Assembly (NCBI GenBank): GCA_903884345.1
Contig: CAISEE010000001.1
Coordinates: 1-56,105 of the forward strand
Source: Candidatus Adlerbacteria bacterium
GTDB taxonomy: Bacteria; Patescibacteriota; Minisyncoccia; Phycocordibacterales; SBAW01
Direction of reading: 5' to 3'
Length of the DNA stretch: 56,105 bases
Below are positions 8,801 through 17,974 of this stretch, piece by piece. A program made the translations under genes and the position numbers. Each line of letters starts with the position of its first letter. Within the stretch, counting starts at the first letter, position 1. The notes under the pieces are model-generated. The model was not told the origin of the DNA. It searched no databases and worked only from the letters and a program-made list of their open reading frames with translations.

Positions 8801-9232
8801 TTACTTAATCTCGAATACCAGGTCGTCGCCGTGGTAGGCCGATCCGTTGTGGAAGACCTCCAACTTCACGCGACCAGCCGTGAAGGTGTAGCCGTACACG
8901 ACCTTCGCGTGCATGTCGAGCCAAAAAGAACATGCAGTCCCCAGCGCCATGGGGTACGGGCCCCGGGCTCCCGCGAAGTCGCGGAAGTCACCGATGGTCT
9001 TGGTCTGGATATTCAGCCTAAGTGTCCTGTTCCAGGCTTCGCTGGCGGCGGTCAGATGCACGGGCTTCCCCGCCAGAAACTCGCCGAACGCGGCGGTCGG
9101 GCAAGCCTTGGCCGCTGCGGCGAGTTCGGCCGAGCCGATGCTCGCAGGGAACTCGGTCGGCGGCGCGGCGTTCGCTGTGGTCATAGCTGCGACGGCACAC
9201 AGCGCGAGTGCGGAAACATAGACCGTATTCAT
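8801..9232 (-). CDS. small secreted protein (unknown function)
   Basis: 143 aa with signal peptide MNTVYVSALALCAVAAMTTANA. AGGAGG lies 6 nt upstream of the ATG. The gene has its own promoter-like TTGACA and a terminator. Confidence 0.55.
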   Translation of the reverse strand: MNTVYVSALALCAVAAMTTANAAPPTEFPASIGSAELAAAAKACPTAAFGEFLAGKPVHLTAASEAWNRTLRLNIQTKTIGDFRDFAGARGPYPMALGTACSFWLDMHAKVVYGYTFTAGRVKLEVFHNGSAYHGDDLVFEIK

Positions 9233-9283
9233 TTAAAGCCTCCTGTATCAAACCTTGACCCATGCCAAGGCTGTACACATGTA

Positions 9284-9312
9284 CACATAGACCACTCATT
9301 GAATGTTGTCAA
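9284..9312 (-). promoter_or_regulatory. sigma70-like promoter (TTGACA-17 nt-TATGTG) for 8801..9232
   Basis: Minus strand reads GCTTGACAACATTCAATGAGTGGTCTATGTG, directly after the stop of the upstream gene. Confidence 0.4.
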
Positions 9313-9315
9313 GCC

Positions 9316-15307: not shown

Positions 15308-15625
15308 CTAGCTGCCTTGGCATCCGCCGCCGCCCTCTGATCCGCCGCCGCCGCACTCACCTTGACTACCGCCGCCGCCCTCGCCGCAACCACCATCACC
15401 ACCACCTCCTCCACCATCATTATTACCGCCTTCGGCCGTGTACTCGGCTAAGGCTGTGGGTACGGAAAACAGGGAAGGCGAGAAGAACTCGGGCCCTTGG
15501 GGTTTCGCACGCATGCCGGCGTCCCTACCGTCGGAGAATCGGGCAACCGTCGAACCCACGAACACAATCGCGCCCAGTGAGAGCAGCGACATCATGCGCA
15601 ATGCAAACCGCATCAATCGTTTCAT
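15308..15625 (-). CDS. RiPP precursor peptide B (Gly/Cys/Ser/acidic core)
   Basis: 105 aa: MKRLMRFALRMMSLLSLGAIVFVGSTVARF...PQGPEFFSPSLFSVPTALAEY...GGNNDGGGGGGDGGCGEGGGGSQGECGGGGSEGGGGCQGS. Lies 58 nt downstream of YcaO-B. Confidence 0.7.
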   Translation of the reverse strand: MKRLMRFALRMMSLLSLGAIVFVGSTVARFSDGRDAGMRAKPQGPEFFSPSLFSVPTALAEYTAEGGNNDGGGGGGDGGCGEGGGGSQGECGGGGSEGGGGCQGS

Positions 15626-15683
15626 ACGGTTAATTATAATGCGTCGGCGACAATTCCCTCACGCGCTATCCACTGCCCCGAGC

Positions 15684-17078
15684 CTACGGGAAAGGGCACA
15701 GTAGTGTGGATCGCGGCTGCACACCGTGAAGGACCGGGCGACTAAAGGTCTCGGTGAGTGCGAACGGGTAGCTGTTGGGGATAATCGCGCGCACCGCATG
15801 GTAGTGGTAGTCGGCCAGGTATCCTTTGGTTGATTCGTAGACGTAGACGTCGCCGAAGGTACGCGTCGCGTAGGCCACGATATCGAAATCGAGCGGCACG
15901 TCGTGCGCAGCCGAGTAAGGCTTCAGCGCCCCGCGCAGACACCGCGCGTCGAGTGTGTCGACGAACGCGCCCCGGTCGTAGAGCAAAATCCGATCCCGTG
16001 CCATGCCGTGCGCGGTATCGAGGAAGTCATGTCGTACACCCTCGATCGTGTGTGGCTCGACGTGGTTGCCGCCGCGGATGGTCGTCTGTCTGCTCCAGAG
16101 GTAGGTCGACACCGCCTCGCCAACCGCGCGTTCAATCGCACCAAGAAGCGTTACCGAGGTCGATGCACCGACCGACCAGCCGCCGAACTTCTCGAGCACG
16201 CACACGACGGTCGGCAGCTTCGCTGCGTTCGTGTAGTCGAGCAAATGTGTTTTGAATCCTGCGGCATGAAGGTCTCGTATCACTGCAACAACCGACTCCC
16301 CTTCGGGAATCGTGCGCGGGTCAATCTGGTCGACCGCCTCGTCGCGATACCAGGCGGCAAGAAAGAAGTGCCGGTGCGTGATCTCAAAAATAGCGGAGCG
16401 CAGTGCCGCCGCATACGAATGCCCTGCACCCGCCCCATGCGTCGTTTGCTGCAACATCGCCTTCTCGTTCGGATACGCGTAGTGATTCCCGAAGAACACC
16501 GTTTGTGCGGGGACGAGACACGCGGCCCCGTCGCGGAGTCGGCGAGCCGACACCCACGAAAAAACATCCGACGCGTCGATGCGACACTCGGGGAATGCGT
16601 CTTTTTGCGCCTCGGTCGGCTGCGCGAATGAGTCGCTCGAGACGAAGGCCGCATGTTTTTTCGCGAGCTCGTGCTGTGAGGCGACGACGATTGGCACATC
16701 GTCGGGGTACTTCAGCGCCGTGCGCTCGAAGAGCTCACCCAGTGCCTTGGCGCATGCCTCCATGTAGTCGGTCGAGGTGCCACGACAGTAGCGACTCGCG
16801 TCGGTGGTGTGGAGGTACACATCATGAAACGTCGTCTGCTTGAGTGTAAAGTTGCTGTACTCGATCGGTTTGTCGATCAAGAGACCGAGCGCCACCAATT
16901 CGGACAGCATAATCCCCAGCAGCAGCTCATCGCAACTCGACGGGTTCGCGTAGTCGAGGTAGAGCAGCTTCGCCACACGAGCGGCCGAGAGGTCGCGAGG
17001 CAGGTACAAAAACTTCGAGCCGCGTTTTCGACGCGCATCAATGAGCATCTCGCGTGCCTGGTTAGTCCATGTGGTCAT
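15684..17078 (-). CDS. YcaO-family protein B (divergent active-site motif)
   Basis: 464 aa. GELFERT is conserved, but the position of ExxERD in YcaO-A reads FEITHRHFF. C-terminus LLCPFP. Its start overlaps the stop of the upstream 299-aa ORF (ATGA). Confidence 0.8.
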   Translation of the reverse strand: MTTWTNQAREMLIDARRKRGSKFLYLPRDLSAARVAKLLYLDYANPSSCDELLLGIMLSELVALGLLIDKPIEYSNFTLKQTTFHDVYLHTTDASRYCRGTSTDYMEACAKALGELFERTALKYPDDVPIVVASQHELAKKHAAFVSSDSFAQPTEAQKDAFPECRIDASDVFSWVSARRLRDGAACLVPAQTVFFGNHYAYPNEKAMLQQTTHGAGAGHSYAAALRSAIFEITHRHFFLAAWYRDEAVDQIDPRTIPEGESVVAVIRDLHAAGFKTHLLDYTNAAKLPTVVCVLEKFGGWSVGASTSVTLLGAIERAVGEAVSTYLWSRQTTIRGGNHVEPHTIEGVRHDFLDTAHGMARDRILLYDRGAFVDTLDARCLRGALKPYSAAHDVPLDFDIVAYATRTFGDVYVYESTKGYLADYHYHAVRAIIPNSYPFALTETFSRPVLHGVQPRSTLLCPFP

Positions 17079-17974
17079 AGGGTTTCGTAGAGATTACAGA
17101 ACGCATGCAAACGGTGTGCGCTGGTGTCGAGGCACAGGTACTGCGAATCGGCGCGCTCGGTAAAAAGTGAGTGGGCAAGCGCCGCCTGGTCGGGCCGCAC
17201 GAACGTGCCGAATCGCGACAGTCGGCGACCGGCAAGAAACGCCTCGCACTCGCCAAGTCGCGCGCTCGATTGACGCCGTGCGAAATGCTCCATGCATTTT
17301 GCCACTCCCGAAGCCGAGATGTCGGTGCGAGAAAGATACCCCGCGTCGAACAAACGCTCGACGCGCGACGCCGCGAGTGCGAGTAGTGTGTCGTCGACAT
17401 GTCCCGTCCACGCGCTGACTTCAGAGAAGTGAAACGGGAGATACTGCGCCCCGTCGCTGCTGCGCAGCCAATACTCAAACACCTTACGCGACTCGTAAAA
17501 AAGATTTGTTGAAAATGGATAAGTTGTGCGCAGTGCTTTGCACTCGAGATAGGCCGAGACGTATATGTACGTTAAGACGGGGTAGGTAAAGAGGTTGGCA
17601 TGCGGGCGCGCCGCAAACGAATCGATGAGCTCTGTCGCATCGTCGCCAAGCTGCGCAAGAAAGCGCATCCCGTAGAGGTCGACGTAGAGCATGTCTTTGG
17701 GCAACCCTTTCACCTTGGCTTCGTCGTAGAGCGACCAGAACACGGCTCGCAGCGCCGCAACTCGCTCGCGTGGGACGAATCCAAAGCGGCTCGCTCGTGC
17801 GAGCGAAAAGAGCACGAACATAGCCCGCGGATAGTCGGGAGCGCTGGATTTGTTGATATGAATCGAGACCGCCGGAGGGTCTACCGAGATGAACGTATCG
17901 AGAATGCCGATTTCGCGGGCAATGCGGGACCGAAGCGTCTTAGTCGAAATCGAGTCCATGGGCACATGATACAC
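17075..17974 (-). CDS. hypothetical protein translationally coupled to YcaO-B
   Basis: 299-aa ORF with no motif I recognise and a helical-looking composition. The 4-nt ATGA overlap with YcaO-B implies co-translation. Confidence 0.6.
   Translation of the reverse strand: MYHVPMDSISTKTLRSRIAREIGILDTFISVDPPAVSIHINKSSAPDYPRAMFVLFSLARASRFGFVPRERVAALRAVFWSLYDEAKVKGLPKDMLYVDLYGMRFLAQLGDDATELIDSFAARPHANLFTYPVLTYIYVSAYLECKALRTTYPFSTNLFYESRKVFEYWLRSSDGAQYLPFHFSEVSAWTGHVDDTLLALAASRVERLFDAGYLSRTDISASGVAKCMEHFARRQSSARLGECEAFLAGRRLSRFGTFVRPDQAALAHSLFTERADSQYLCLDTSAHRLHAFCNLYETL

What the first reader, a model, noticed from the sequence alone, without database searches (positions are those of the whole stretch)
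8801..17974. Two tandem paralogous YcaO RiPP loci with complementary enzyme sets
Read on the minus strand, locus B (17974 to 13787) is: 299-aa unknown, YcaO-B, precursor B, helical membrane protein B, small secreted protein. Locus A (13673 to 8801) is: YcaO-A, SagB-type dehydrogenase, precursor A, small secreted protein, helical membrane protein A, small secreted protein. The precursors share a 21-residue block and the helical proteins share their last 15 residues. All four of these start codons sit in the same CGTATGAA context, so this looks like an old segmental duplication rather than an assembly artefact. Only A has the dehydrogenase and only B has the coupled 299-aa protein. Neither locus shows a recognisable E1/ThiF-like partner, ABC exporter or leader peptidase. 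I cannot match this architecture to a described TOMM family.
Basis: partly seen in the sequence, partly recalled or inferred. Interest (0 to 1): 0.85.

Follow-up and report, generated by a model that had tools for sequence, protein, structure and literature searches.

The report
Tandem YcaO peptide-modification clusters, CPR bacterium
This is a real gene cluster for enzymatically modified small peptides, built from two different YcaO enzyme modules each beside its own copy of a duplicated precursor and membrane-protein pair. It belongs to a widespread but uncharacterised family in tiny candidate-phyla-radiation bacteria, whose precursors unusually start with a secretion-signal-like membrane helix.

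Summary
All eleven genes lie on the minus strand in the stated order. Both YcaO genes and the SagB dehydrogenase get strong family matches. CGTATGAA occurs four times in the window, exactly at the four paralogous start codons.

Only the precursor and membrane-protein pair is duplicated: the leaders are 60% identical and the membrane proteins 53%. The two YcaOs are 24% identical and belong to separate clades.

Locus A is an ordinary member of a large family with at least 347 metagenome loci. Sharrar et al. 2020 already flagged this kind of cluster in CPR genomes as linear azole-peptide clusters. It extends beyond the finding to about 5049.

Locus B belongs to a smaller family of 16 loci, including Minisyncoccia and Saccharibacteria genomes. 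All 16 carry the 299-aa protein directly upstream of the YcaO, and none has a dehydrogenase. That protein models as an alpha/alpha toroid.

All precursors share three parts: an N-terminal membrane helix, an AxA[D/E] site that resembles a signal-peptidase site, and a Gly/Glu/Cys-rich tail.

Most likely each module is self-sufficient. A would make thiazoles and B thiazolines or another backbone change, on peptides exported through Sec. The chemistry is inferred. This is a new variant of a known kind.

The parts
17075..17974 (-). U299: 299-aa protein (294 aa from the first ATG), translationally coupled to YcaO-B. Predicted alpha/alpha toroid and candidate YcaO partner.
   Evidence: No Pfam, NCBIfam or PDB sequence hit. 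AF2 model has pLDDT 76 and pTM 0.81 and is almost all-helical, 16 helices plus one short hairpin. Foldseek best hits are (alpha/alpha)6 barrels (GH105, GH76, C3d) with TMq up to 0.62 but E >= 0.05. A homologue sits directly upstream of the YcaO in all 16 B-type loci. Invariant residues are D47, R50, Y101, Y131, P132, E185, S187, K226, E229, R233, R250, E273, D283, T284 and H287. No Cys is invariant. hhalign to the C-terminal domain of the AMMECR1-toroid fusions gives P 0.001, against 0.23-0.93 for 12 control comparisons.
15684..17078 (-). YcaO-B: 464-aa YcaO of a small CPR clade with a divergent second ATP/Mg motif.
   Evidence: PF02624 E 5.6e-36. AF2 pLDDT 91. Foldseek matches LynD, MusD, MjYcaO, McbD and EcYcaO at E 1e-16 to 1e-11. 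It has EITHRH where solved YcaOs have E-x-x-E-R-D/Q. The C-terminus is CPFP, not PxPxP. It has 15 homologues, identity 33-73%.
15308..15625 (-). preB: 105-aa precursor with an N-terminal basic plus hydrophobic helix, ALA|EY, and a 45-aa tail with 25 Gly and 3 Cys.
   Evidence: The leader is 60% identical to preA. The public gene call on this contig missed it.
14264..15274 (-). helB: 336-aa protein with an N-terminal TM helix followed by a TPR-containing helical domain.
   Evidence: 53% identical to helA. Weak PF09976 TPR_21 hit, E 0.0056. The family profile hits consensus TPR proteins (E 2.8e-19 to an engineered multi-repeat protein with 14 matched stretches, 2e-5 to CTPR3) and BamD at about 1e-4. 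It is present after the precursor in all B-type loci with enough sequence.
13787..14173 (-). secB: 128-aa small secreted protein, its own transcription unit.
   Evidence: Signal peptide with ALA|Q. Near-consensus promoter at 14230-14258 and terminator at 13730-13749. No homologues in related loci.
12117..13673 (-). YcaO-A: 518-aa YcaO of the large CPR LAP-type clade, with canonical motifs.
   Evidence: PF02624 E 2.3e-49. It has ELLERQ and EAVERD motifs and a C-terminal PIPHPF, which fits PxPxP. There are 312 cluster representatives at E <= 1e-30, about 510 aa each and including the N-terminal extension. 347 metagenome stretches were confirmed.
11368..12117 (-). SagB-type FMN dehydrogenase, coupled to YcaO-A by a 1-nt overlap.
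   Evidence: TIGR03605 E 9.5e-39, 132.7 bits against a cutoff of 78.4. PF00881 E 1.1e-22. SagB is present in 55 of 80 A-type loci, and in 23 of the 24 that have at least 2.5 kb of flank on both sides.
10999..11307 (-). preA: 102-aa precursor with the same architecture, ALA|EY, and a 42-aa tail with 17 Gly and 4 Cys.
   Evidence: The weak PF25184 YxzE hit (E 5e-4, below cutoff) is not shared by the other nine precursors scanned.
10500..10925 (-). secA1: small secreted protein inserted between preA and helA, its own transcription unit.
   Evidence: Promoter at 10943-10971 and terminator at 10460-10493. In all related loci the precursor is directly followed by HEL.
9316..10329 (-). helA: 337-aa TM plus TPR-containing helical protein.
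8801..9232 (-). secA2: 143-aa small secreted protein.
   Evidence: Signal peptide with ANA|A. Terminator at 8766-8789. No family hit.
7092..8750 (-). PRTase-like domain plus PQQ/BamB-like beta-propeller. A conserved cluster member outside the finding's range.
   Evidence: The beta-propeller match is PF13570 E 4.4e-56. The PRTase domain was matched in the homologue in L032, PF00156 E 1.8e-5. Homologues are found in 14 A-type loci, best E 1.2e-165.
6196..7056 (-). TPR protein, conserved in both A-type and B-type loci.
   Evidence: TPR Pfam hits. 21 ORF hits in A-type loci (a cluster spanning 19 loci), best E 8.4e-58. Also found in B-type loci L006-9 and L093-95.
5049..6314 (-). c10: unknown protein (about 371 aa by the public gene call), weakly conserved as a cluster member.
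   Evidence: phmmer E 1.4e-8 to cluster c10 of A-type loci. The c10 HMM also hits B-type loci L009 and L006-8.

Best explanation
This is a RiPP-type gene cluster of a candidate-phyla-radiation (Patescibacteria) bacterium, spanning about 5.0-18.0 kb on the minus strand. It combines two self-sufficient YcaO modules of different clades. Each module lies next to its own copy of a duplicated pair: a precursor gene and a membrane-anchored TPR gene.

The precursors are three-part peptides: (i) a basic N-terminus and a roughly 20-residue hydrophobic helix that acts as a Sec signal or anchor; (ii) a linker that ends in a signal-peptidase-I-like A-x-A|D/E site; (iii) a 25-50-residue Gly/Glu/Ser-rich core with 1-4 Cys.

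Inferred sequence of events:
1. In the cytoplasm, YcaO-A activates the amide before each Cys with ATP to form thiazolines. The coupled SagB dehydrogenase oxidises them to thiazoles. This gives a microcin-B17-like linear azole peptide.
2. YcaO-B works with the coupled alpha/alpha-toroid protein U299 in place of an E1/ThiF-like partner. It makes unoxidised azolines, or another backbone modification, on its own precursor.
3. The modified peptides are exported through Sec, handled outside the cell by the TM-TPR proteins, and released at the AxA site.
4. Because the two leaders share 60% identity and a 21-residue block, cross-processing between the modules is possible but not required.

Shown by tool results: gene content, homologies, the family-wide architecture and the synteny. 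Inferred: the chemistry, the role of U299, the export route and the cleavage.
For: - YcaO-B folds confidently as a YcaO.
- YcaO-A has canonical ExxER motifs and a PxPxP C-terminus.
- The same precursor architecture is present in 15 B-type precursors (11, 4 more). At least 30 ORFs in A-type loci pass the membrane-helix plus Gly/Cys-tail screen, and the AxA[DEQ] site is visible in about 15 of those read. The motifs AxAD[VT]P and G-C are conserved in the alignment.
- Conserved leader with variable core: preA and preB are 60% identical in the leader, while the core is a gapped low-complexity alignment.
- The cassette U300-YcaO-PRE-HEL recurs in 16 loci, including Minisyncoccia and Saccharibacteria MAGs.
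- A-type loci show YcaO with SagB, PRE, HEL, TPR and PRT-PQQ.
- Each module occurs alone elsewhere: 0 of 80 A-type loci have U300 and 0 of 16 B-type loci have SagB.
- AxA|D matches the predicted signal-peptidase sites of other secreted proteins in the window: ANA|A, ALA|Q, VFA|D, AKA|D.
- B-type loci often sit next to SecD-SecF, DsbB, a TM-anchored DsbA-like protein and a rhodanese.
- A toroid domain accompanies both YcaO clades: as U300 with B-type, and as the AMMECR1-toroid fusion in 22 of 80 A-type loci.
- CPR LAP clusters have been reported before (PMC7298704).
Against: - No biochemical data exist for any member.
- The hydrophobic helix lies 12-35 residues before the AxA site, far longer than a normal signal-peptide c-region. 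Cleavage by signal peptidase I is therefore uncertain.
- No RRE or PqqD domain was detected, so leader recognition is unexplained.
- YcaO-B lacks PxPxP and has His in place of a Glu that is conserved in all solved YcaOs aligned. It may not be an azoline former.
- The U299 fold match is weak (E >= 0.05) and rests on a 3-sequence alignment.
- Some cores have a single Cys among about 45 Gly/Glu residues, which is little substrate for a dedicated heterocyclase.
- No immunity gene or dedicated exporter was found.
- The taxonomic assignment of the window itself is indirect.
Confidence: 0.6

Rival explanations
1. YcaO-B with U299 does not make azolines. It would perform a different YcaO reaction on the Gly-rich backbone: thioamidation, amidine or macrocycle formation, or ATP-dependent peptide cleavage as in MusD. 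The cluster would then install two different chemistries, as the two YcaOs of the bottromycin cluster do.
For: - YcaO-B ends in CPFP rather than PxPxP. It carries E-x-x-H-R-H where solved YcaOs have E-x-x-E-R-D/Q.
- B-type loci never have a dehydrogenase (0 of 16).
- A rhodanese follows the cassette in five lineages.
- MusD, a YcaO with peptidase activity, is the best PDB sequence hit.
- Several cores have only 1-2 Cys.
- Two divergent YcaOs flank one precursor set in L010, L011, L055 and L067.
- The bottromycin precedent is from general knowledge.
Against: - No TfuA or ThiS-like gene is present.
- The rhodaneses carry an N-terminal TM helix and sit with DsbA/DsbB-type genes. This suggests an extracytoplasmic thiol system rather than a cytoplasmic sulfur donor.
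- Every core keeps at least one Cys in a conserved G-C context.
- E to Q/H at the same motif position also occurs in A-type relatives that sit with SagB.
- LynD and TruD match nearly as well as MusD.
Confidence: 0.2
2. The products are not released antibiotics. They would be cell-envelope components of the CPR cell: membrane-anchored or secreted acidic Gly/Cys peptides, heterocyclised and/or disulfide-bonded, used for metal binding, surface structure or attachment to the host cell.
For: - The family is very widespread across CPR lineages: 312 representatives and at least 347 loci.
- No immunity gene or exporter was found.
- The system is always accompanied by membrane-anchored TPR scaffold-like proteins.
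- It shows synteny with SecDF, DsbA-like, DsbB and rhodanese genes.
- The cores are strongly anionic, with GEGEGE runs.
- The hydrophobic helices have TM-like length and carry a recurring Pro, and often a Gly, in most B-type precursors (read by eye).
Against: - The conserved AxA[DE] site argues for release of the core.
- Hypervariable cores with conserved leaders are typical of diffusible RiPPs.
- Microcin B17, the closest analogue by core composition, is an antibiotic.
- The synteny with Sec and Dsb genes may reflect shared ancestry of a few related lineages.
Confidence: 0.25
3. The two loci are obligately complementary. U299 would be the missing partner for YcaO-A as well, and SagB would oxidise azolines on both precursors, so neither locus works alone.
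For: - The window's YcaO-A lacks the AMMECR1-toroid protein that precedes A-type YcaOs in 10 of 24 complete loci.
- U299 is plausibly related to that toroid domain.
- The leaders of preA and preB share a 21-residue block.
- The loci are adjacent and on the same strand.
Against: - 14 of 24 complete A-type loci also lack any toroid gene.
- 0 of 16 B-type loci have SagB.
- secB, with its own promoter and a terminator, separates the loci.
Confidence: 0.15
4. The tandem arrangement is an assembly artefact or a chance similarity of Gly-rich ORFs.
For: - The cores are low-complexity GGN-rich sequence.
- Automated gene calling picked other frames there.
Against: - The paralogues are only 53-60% identical in protein and 66% in DNA.
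- The same arrangement is seen on an independent 17-kb ENA contig.
- The precursor frame is supported by the conserved architecture in more than 40 loci.
Confidence: 0.01

Closest known systems
CPR linear azol(in)e-peptide (LAP) clusters reported by genome mining (Sharrar et al. 2020, mBio, PMC7298704)
   Same: - YcaO next to a nitroreductase-type dehydrogenase and a precursor of about 84 aa, in CPR genomes.
- 110 clusters were found in 93 CPR genomes, 89 of them with the nitroreductase.
- Locus A fits this description.
   Different: - That report lists a peptidase, which was not found here.
- It does not describe the signal-anchored precursor, the AxA[DE] site, the TM-TPR proteins, the toroid or AMMECR1 partner, or the B-type module.
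- Direct sequence comparison was not possible because no sequences are given in the text.
Microcin B17 system (McbABCDEFG)
   Same: - Gly-rich core with Cys.
- YcaO (McbD) plus an FMN dehydrogenase (McbC-like SagB).
- McbD is a structural match of YcaO-B, Foldseek E 1.3e-13, TMt 0.71.
   Different: - No McbB-like E1/RRE partner, no McbEF ABC exporter and no McbG immunity gene.
- The precursor has an N-terminal membrane helix.
- The cores are acidic and poor in Ser.
- Sequence identity to McbD is about 15%.
Cyanobactin heterocyclases (LynD, TruD, PatD) and MusD
   Same: - They are the best PDB sequence and structure matches of both YcaOs.
   Different: - Those enzymes are about 780 aa, with a fused E1-like and RRE N-terminal half.
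- The YcaOs here are 464 and 518 aa, with short N-terminal extensions that match no Pfam family and could not be assigned a fold.
Bottromycin cluster (two YcaOs with different chemistry, no E1 partner)
   Same: - Two divergent stand-alone YcaOs sit in one cluster without an E1/ThiF-like partner. This comparison is from general knowledge.
   Different: - Bottromycin uses a follower peptide and a single precursor.
- Here there are N-terminal leaders, two precursors, and a dehydrogenase in one module.
YcaO-TfuA thioamidation systems (thioamitides, McrA)
   Same: - A stand-alone YcaO without a dehydrogenase.
- MJ1094 and M. kandleri YcaO are structural matches.
   Different: - No TfuA is present.
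- An adjacent Cys-containing precursor is present.
- TIGR03266 scores 32.6 bits against a cutoff of 365.

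Membership tests
Azol(in)e-forming TOMM/LAP cluster | YcaO domain protein with ATP/Mg-binding ExxER motifs | tested here: met
   PF02624 gives E 2.3e-49 for YcaO-A and 5.6e-36 for YcaO-B. YcaO-A has both motifs. YcaO-B has the first motif (ELFER), but its second reads EITHRH.
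Azol(in)e-forming TOMM/LAP cluster | Pro-rich PxPxP C-terminus of the cyclodehydratase (a feature recalled from the literature) | tested here: inconclusive
   YcaO-A ends ...NPIPHPFI, which meets the motif. YcaO-B ends ...LLCPFP and its family consensus is NPFP, which is PxP only.
Azol(in)e-forming TOMM/LAP cluster | E1-like or Ocin-ThiF-like partner, or an RRE domain for leader binding | tested here: not met
   No Pfam or NCBIfam hit in any cluster protein, nor in 28 family members scanned individually. Remote RRE-like folds in the YcaO N-termini could not be excluded. The YcaO-B model shows three N-terminal helices.
Azol(in)e-forming TOMM/LAP cluster | FMN-dependent SagB/McbC-type dehydrogenase | tested here: met
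   Met for locus A: TIGR03605 scores 132.7 bits against a cutoff of 78.4. Absent from locus B and from all 16 B-type loci.
Azol(in)e-forming TOMM/LAP cluster | Adjacent short precursor with a Cys/Ser/Thr-bearing core | tested here: met
   preA has 4 Cys, 6 Ser and 1 Thr. preB has 3 Cys, 3 Ser and 1 Thr. The feature is conserved in more than 40 related loci.
Azol(in)e-forming TOMM/LAP cluster | -18/-20 Da modifications on the peptide | not testable with these tools
   Needs co-expression and mass spectrometry.
CPR LAP clusters (Sharrar et al. 2020) | YcaO plus adjacent nitroreductase plus a precursor of about 84 aa, in a CPR genome | tested here: met
   Locus A has YcaO-A, SagB and the 102-aa preA. 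Relatives of the B cassette lie in Minisyncoccia and Saccharibacteria MAGs. The taxonomy of the window itself is inferred.
CPR LAP clusters (Sharrar et al. 2020) | Cluster-encoded peptidase | tested here: not met
   No peptidase family was found between 5.0 and 18.0 kb.
YcaO-TfuA thioamide systems | TfuA partner gene | tested here: not met
   No TfuA hit in the window's cluster proteins.
Sec/SPase I signal peptide | Basic n-region and hydrophobic h-region | tested here: met
   K/R lies within the first residues. The best 19-residue windows have mean hydropathy of 1.8-2.7 in all 11 precursors analysed.
Sec/SPase I signal peptide | Short c-region (about 3-7 residues) before the AxA cleavage site | tested here: not met
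   An AxA[DE] site is present in all 11 precursors analysed, but it lies about 12-35 residues after the hydrophobic helix. No dedicated predictor was available.
LanC-like or prenyltransferase-like alpha/alpha toroid enzymes (for U299) | Alpha/alpha barrel fold | tested here: inconclusive
   AF2 pTM is 0.81. The best Foldseek hits are (alpha/alpha)6 barrels with TMq 0.55-0.62 and E 0.05-0.1. No LanC appears in the top 50.
LanC-like or prenyltransferase-like alpha/alpha toroid enzymes (for U299) | Conserved Cys/Cys/His zinc site | tested here: not met
   No Cys is invariant across the 8 homologues: C227 becomes N, and C145 and C281 become S.

The most novel reading that the evidence does not exclude
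The B module (toroid protein plus a divergent YcaO, with no dehydrogenase) may be a new kind of YcaO system. In this reading an alpha/alpha-toroid protein replaces the E1/RRE partner. The enzyme would install a non-azoline modification (thioamide, amidine or ATP-driven cleavage) on Sec-targeted, membrane-anchored Gly/Glu/Cys peptides. The CPR-wide family as a whole would make cell-surface or host-interaction factors of these episymbiotic bacteria rather than classical antibiotics.
Probability: 0.2. Interest if true: 0.85.

Novelty: new variant of a known kind. Interest (0 to 1): 0.6.

Why it matters
YcaO RiPP systems are defined by how the enzyme recognises its leader (E1/RRE partners or TfuA) and by how the product leaves the cell (ABC exporters and leader peptidases). 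This family appears to lack all of these.

In their place it has four features:
- precursors that start with a secretion-signal-like membrane helix;
- a conserved AxA[D/E] site;
- two membrane-anchored TPR proteins;
- an alpha/alpha-toroid protein, stand-alone or fused to AMMECR1, coupled to the YcaO.

The family is widespread in CPR/Patescibacteria, whose reduced genomes encode very few natural-product pathways. Its product is therefore probably important for their lifestyle.

The window puts both enzyme flavours side by side with closely related precursors. That makes it a convenient natural test case for three questions: what each YcaO does, whether the toroid is a new class of YcaO partner, and whether a RiPP can be routed through Sec.

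Automated gene calling missed both precursors here. The family's precursors may therefore be under-represented in protein databases.

Tried and rejected
- Word-indexed homology search with helA found only its own paralogue. The family had to be recovered through synteny and local HMMs.
- PDB sequence search found nothing for U299 or for single-sequence YcaO-B.
- Pfam scans of 15 A-type and 13 B-type YcaOs for an RRE/PqqD or E1 domain found none.
- I considered a LanC-like zinc cyclase role for U299 and rejected it, because no Cys is invariant.
- I considered whether the weak PF25184 YxzE 'putative bacteriocin' hit of preA defines the precursor family. It does not: 0 of the 9 other precursors hit it.
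- I considered the rhodanese as a cytoplasmic sulfur donor for thioamidation. This is weakened because the rhodaneses carry an N-terminal TM helix and sit with DsbA-like and DsbB genes. None is present in the window.
- Many apparent 'second YcaO' ORFs in the metagenome loci turned out to be antisense shadow ORFs of SagB. Only L010, L011, L055 and L067 are true two-YcaO loci.
- The other conserved neighbours (c15, c16, c20, c25, c10, HEL) show no profile similarity to U299 or to the AMMECR1-toroid proteins, P 0.23-0.93.
- The count of CGTATGAA is not significant by itself.
- Literature searches for YcaO with a Sec signal peptide, or YcaO with AMMECR1, found nothing.
- The N-terminal three-helix region of YcaO-B could not be assigned to a known fold.
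- The taxon of the window itself could not be determined directly.

Full report
**1. The observation**

YcaO-B (15684-17078) and YcaO-A (12117-13673) match PF02624 at E 5.6e-36 and 2.3e-49. The gene after YcaO-A (11368-12117) matches the SagB dehydrogenase model TIGR03605 at 132.7 bits, above its 78.4-bit cutoff.

The 299-aa ORF (17075-17974) overlaps YcaO-B by ATGA. YcaO-A overlaps SagB by one base.

CGTATGAA occurs four times in the window on both strands. The four sites are exactly the start codons of preB (15625), helB (15274), preA (11307) and helA (10329). The count is not unusual (1.78 expected), but the placement is. It also corrects two longest-ORF starts: preA becomes 102 aa and helB 336 aa.

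The shared 21-residue block is 19/21 identical. The last 15 residues of the helical proteins are 11/15 identical.

helA and helB are 53% identical (E 3e-112). The precursor leaders are 60% identical. DNA similarity survives only inside the hel genes, at 66% over 588 nt. The duplication is therefore real and old, not an assembly artefact. An independent 17-kb ENA contig carries the same arrangement.

**2. What was duplicated and what was not**

YcaO-A and YcaO-B are only 24% identical. Each has its own family.

YcaO-B has 15 homologues in a 5.8-billion-protein database, at 33-73% identity. YcaO-A has 312 cluster representatives at E <= 1e-30. All are about 510 aa and also cover the N-terminal extension. 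A metagenome scan confirmed 347 encoding stretches.

In contrast, preA/preB and helA/helB are each other's closest relatives by far. So the precursor-HEL module was duplicated within this lineage. The two enzyme sets are not paralogous copies of one locus.

**3. Locus B is the archetype of a conserved cassette**

I recovered 16 loci with YcaO-B relatives: L002-L012 and L093-L097. They include a Minisyncoccia MAG, a Saccharibacteria MAG and an NCBI MAG.

In all 16, a U299 homologue lies directly upstream of the YcaO. In most it overlaps or nearly abuts the YcaO start, and the gap is 44-118 nt in L093-L095.

Wherever sequence continues downstream, one or two short ORFs follow, and then a protein of 340-390 aa with an N-terminal TM helix. 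The helical-protein HMM detects this protein in 13 loci at E 4e-133 to 6e-27. It was trained on seven of those sequences, but it also hits loci outside the training set at E 6e-74 to 6e-27.

None of the 16 loci has a SagB homologue.

Seven loci also carry, divergently upstream, a homologue of the window's TPR protein (6196-7056). Four carry the weak c10 family (5049-6314).

In five lineages the cassette is followed by a TM-anchored rhodanese and a TM-anchored DsbA-like thioredoxin. SecD, SecF and DsbB often follow those. The window has none of these.

**4. Locus A is an ordinary member of a much larger family**

I analysed 80 metagenome loci with YcaO-A relatives. SagB is present in 55. Among the 24 loci with at least 2.5 kb of flank on both sides, the counts are:
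- SagB: 23.
- HEL-type TM-TPR protein: 15.
- The TPR protein: 13.
- A strictly defined precursor: 13.
- PRTase-beta-propeller: 7.
- c10: 8.

The window's genes at 7092-8750 (PRTase plus PQQ-like propeller, E 1.2e-165 to relatives), 6196-7056 (TPR, E 8.4e-58) and 5049-6314 (c10, E 1.4e-8) belong to these conserved sets. The cluster therefore extends to about 5049, outside the finding's range.

In 22 of the 80 loci (10 of the 24 complete ones), a protein of about 620 aa lies directly upstream of the YcaO. It has an AMMECR1 domain and a squalene-hopene-cyclase-C-like domain. The window's locus A lacks it, as do 14 of the 24 complete loci.

This family fits the 'LAP clusters in CPR' found by antiSMASH in Sharrar et al. 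2020. That paper reports YcaO, a nitroreductase and a precursor of about 84 aa, with 110 clusters in 93 CPR genomes (PMC7298704). I found no experimental work on them.

**5. The precursors**

All 15 B-type precursors share one architecture (11, 4 more). At least 30 ORFs in A-type loci pass the same membrane-helix plus Gly/Cys-tail screen:
- a basic N-terminus;
- a hydrophobic helix of about 20 residues, with mean hydropathy 1.8-2.7;
- a linker ending in A-x-A-[D/E], with consensus AHADVP (ALAEY in the window), sometimes with Q in A-type loci;
- a tail of 25-52 residues rich in Gly, Glu, Ser and Gln, with 1-4 Cys, usually in a G-C context.

Leaders are conserved and cores are variable, as is usual for RiPPs.

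The AxA|D/E motif matches the likely signal-peptidase sites of other secreted proteins in the same window: ANA|A, ALA|Q, VFA|D and AKA|D. However, it lies 12-35 residues after the helix, which is too far for a textbook signal peptide.

No Pfam or NCBIfam model covers these peptides. The public gene calls on the same contig missed both, calling out-of-frame 45-aa and 49-aa ORFs in the GGN-rich cores instead.

**6. The accessory proteins**

U299 has no sequence match in Pfam, NCBIfam or the PDB. An AF2 model built from three sequences (pLDDT 76, pTM 0.81) is almost all-helical, with one short hairpin. Its best structural neighbours are (alpha/alpha)6 barrels (GH105, GH76, C3d), with TMq up to 0.62 but E >= 0.05.

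Fifteen polar or aromatic residues are invariant across eight homologues. No cysteine is invariant, so a LanC-type zinc site is excluded.

A profile comparison with the C-terminal, cyclase-like domain of the AMMECR1 fusions gives P 0.001 over 166 columns. It includes a shared terminal motif, [CW][LI]D[TS][SA][AG]H. Twelve control comparisons give P 0.23-0.93. This is suggestive of homology but not proof.

So a toroid domain seems to accompany both YcaO clades.

The HEL profile hits consensus TPR proteins and BamD. E is 2.8e-19 to an engineered multi-repeat TPR protein (14 matched stretches), 2e-5 to CTPR3 and about 1e-4 to BamD. Four members weakly hit the YfgM-type TPR_21 family. HEL is therefore a membrane-anchored TPR protein.

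**7. The YcaOs**

The YcaO-B model is confident (pLDDT 91). It superposes on LynD, MusD, the methanogen YcaOs, McbD and E. coli YcaO at E 1e-16 to 1e-11. Its first 63 residues form three helices that I could not assign to a known fold.

YcaO-A has canonical ELLER and EAVERD motifs and a PIPHPF end. YcaO-B has EITHRH where the five solved YcaOs whose alignments were printed have E-x-x-E-R-D/Q, and it ends in CPFP. E to Q/H at that position also occurs in some A-type relatives, so this alone does not prove different chemistry.

True two-YcaO clusters that share one precursor set also occur in L010, L011, L055 and L067.

**8. Mechanism**

Shown: the gene content, the homologies, the family-wide precursor architecture and the synteny.

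Inferred:
- YcaO-A and SagB convert Cys in the Gly-rich core to thiazoles, as in microcin B17.
- YcaO-B with U299 makes azolines, or another backbone modification, without oxidation.
- The N-terminal helix routes the modified peptide to Sec.
- The AxA site is where the core is released.
- The TM-TPR proteins act outside the membrane.

Because each module occurs alone elsewhere (0 of 80 and 0 of 16), I regard them as self-sufficient. Cross-processing is plausible, given the shared leader block, but it is not needed.

The rivals are non-azoline chemistry for YcaO-B, an envelope or host-interaction role rather than an antibiotic, and obligate complementarity. Their evidence is listed in the rival section.

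**9. Verdict**

The cluster is a new variant of a known kind: a YcaO LAP-type RiPP cluster already flagged in CPR genomes.

To my searches, these features are undescribed:
- signal-anchored precursors with an AxA[D/E] site;
- paired membrane-anchored TPR proteins;
- a toroid (or AMMECR1-toroid) partner in place of E1/RRE;
- a dehydrogenase-less sister module with a divergent YcaO.

The tandem presence of both modules with sister precursors makes this window a good experimental entry point.

I score interest at 0.6. A RiPP specialist would find it notable, but all the chemistry remains to be shown.

Noticed in passing
window 10943-10971 and 14230-14258 (minus strand); terminators at 10460-10493, 13730-13749 and 8766-8789: The small secreted-protein genes secA1 and secB are each preceded by a near-consensus promoter, CTTGACAAAT-N13-TATACT. 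These are the only two such sites in the window, with 0 expected by chance. Each gene is followed by a strong terminator. The upstream regions of all three sec genes align, including a shared TTTGA(A/T)A motif. They look like separately and strongly transcribed units inserted into the cluster. They have no homologues in related loci, and their role (immunity?) is unknown.
   Followed up: partly
L001 (same contig, public gene calls), corresponding to window 10941-11078 and 15271-15420: Automated gene calling missed both precursor genes. It called out-of-frame 45-aa and 49-aa ORFs in the GGN-rich core regions instead. Precursors of this family may therefore be under-represented in protein databases.
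   Followed up: yes
window 11308-11330 and 15626-15650 (minus strand): -10-like hexamers (TACAAT and TATAAT) end 6-7 nt before the ATG of preA and preB. No Shine-Dalgarno sequence is visible. These may be leaderless precursor mRNAs, which would partly explain the shared CCGTATGAA context.
   Followed up: no
L005 7426-8578; L006 9916-11131; L093 8157-9420; L095 7633-8845; L096 7004-8222: In five B-type lineages the cassette is followed directly by a TM-anchored rhodanese and a TM-anchored DsbA-like (Thioredoxin_4) protein, except in L093, where an AAA-ATPase gene intervenes. SecD-SecF and DsbB often lie just beyond. This suggests extracytoplasmic thiol chemistry on the exported Cys peptides. 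These genes are absent from the window.
   Followed up: partly
e.g. L063 3963-5963, L025 3997-5901, L067 1401-3290: A fusion protein of about 620 aa lies directly upstream of A-type YcaOs in 22 of 80 loci. It has an AMMECR1 domain (PF01871, E 1.9e-14) and a squalene-hopene-cyclase-C-like toroid. No paper in the searchable library mentions YcaO together with AMMECR1.
   Followed up: partly
L010 11121-12359; L011 3518-4690; L055 5986-9283; L067 3283-7943: Other CPR loci carry two divergent YcaO genes (21-36% identical) around a single precursor-HEL set. L010 and L011 have a third YcaO subtype of about 400 aa after HEL. L010 and L011 also have two tandem precursor genes.
   Followed up: partly
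window 7092-8750: A phosphoribosyltransferase-like domain is fused to a PQQ/BamB-like beta-propeller, with no signal peptide. This protein is conserved next to A-type YcaO clusters in 14 loci. Its function in a RiPP context is unexplained.
   Followed up: partly
L006 4968-6212; L096 2095-3318: A polytopic membrane protein of about 410 aa with a Cys-rich C-terminal domain lies just upstream of U300 in some B-type loci. In L096 it sits near a DCC1-like thiol-disulfide oxidoreductase. It has no Pfam hit on record.
   Followed up: no
window 45282-53201: A type I restriction-modification system lies in a region of clearly lower GC (0.40-0.50 against 0.56-0.63 elsewhere), so it was probably acquired horizontally. 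It comprises hsdR (45282-48194), hsdS (49728-50951) and hsdM with an N-terminal MerR-type HTH (51432-53201).
   Followed up: no
window 26627-33973: A carbohydrate gene group: GT2 with a GtrA domain (26627-27907), GH8 (28215-29432), a cellulose-synthase-like GT2 (29318-31009) and GH6 (32534-33973). This suggests synthesis or turnover of a cellulose-type polymer.
   Followed up: no
window 18003-21471: Two large secreted proteins without any family match lie just upstream of locus B. One is 322 aa with an N-terminal TM helix. The other is 835 aa, Ser/Thr/Gly-rich and has repeated Cys-containing modules. They are not conserved next to related cassettes.
   Followed up: no
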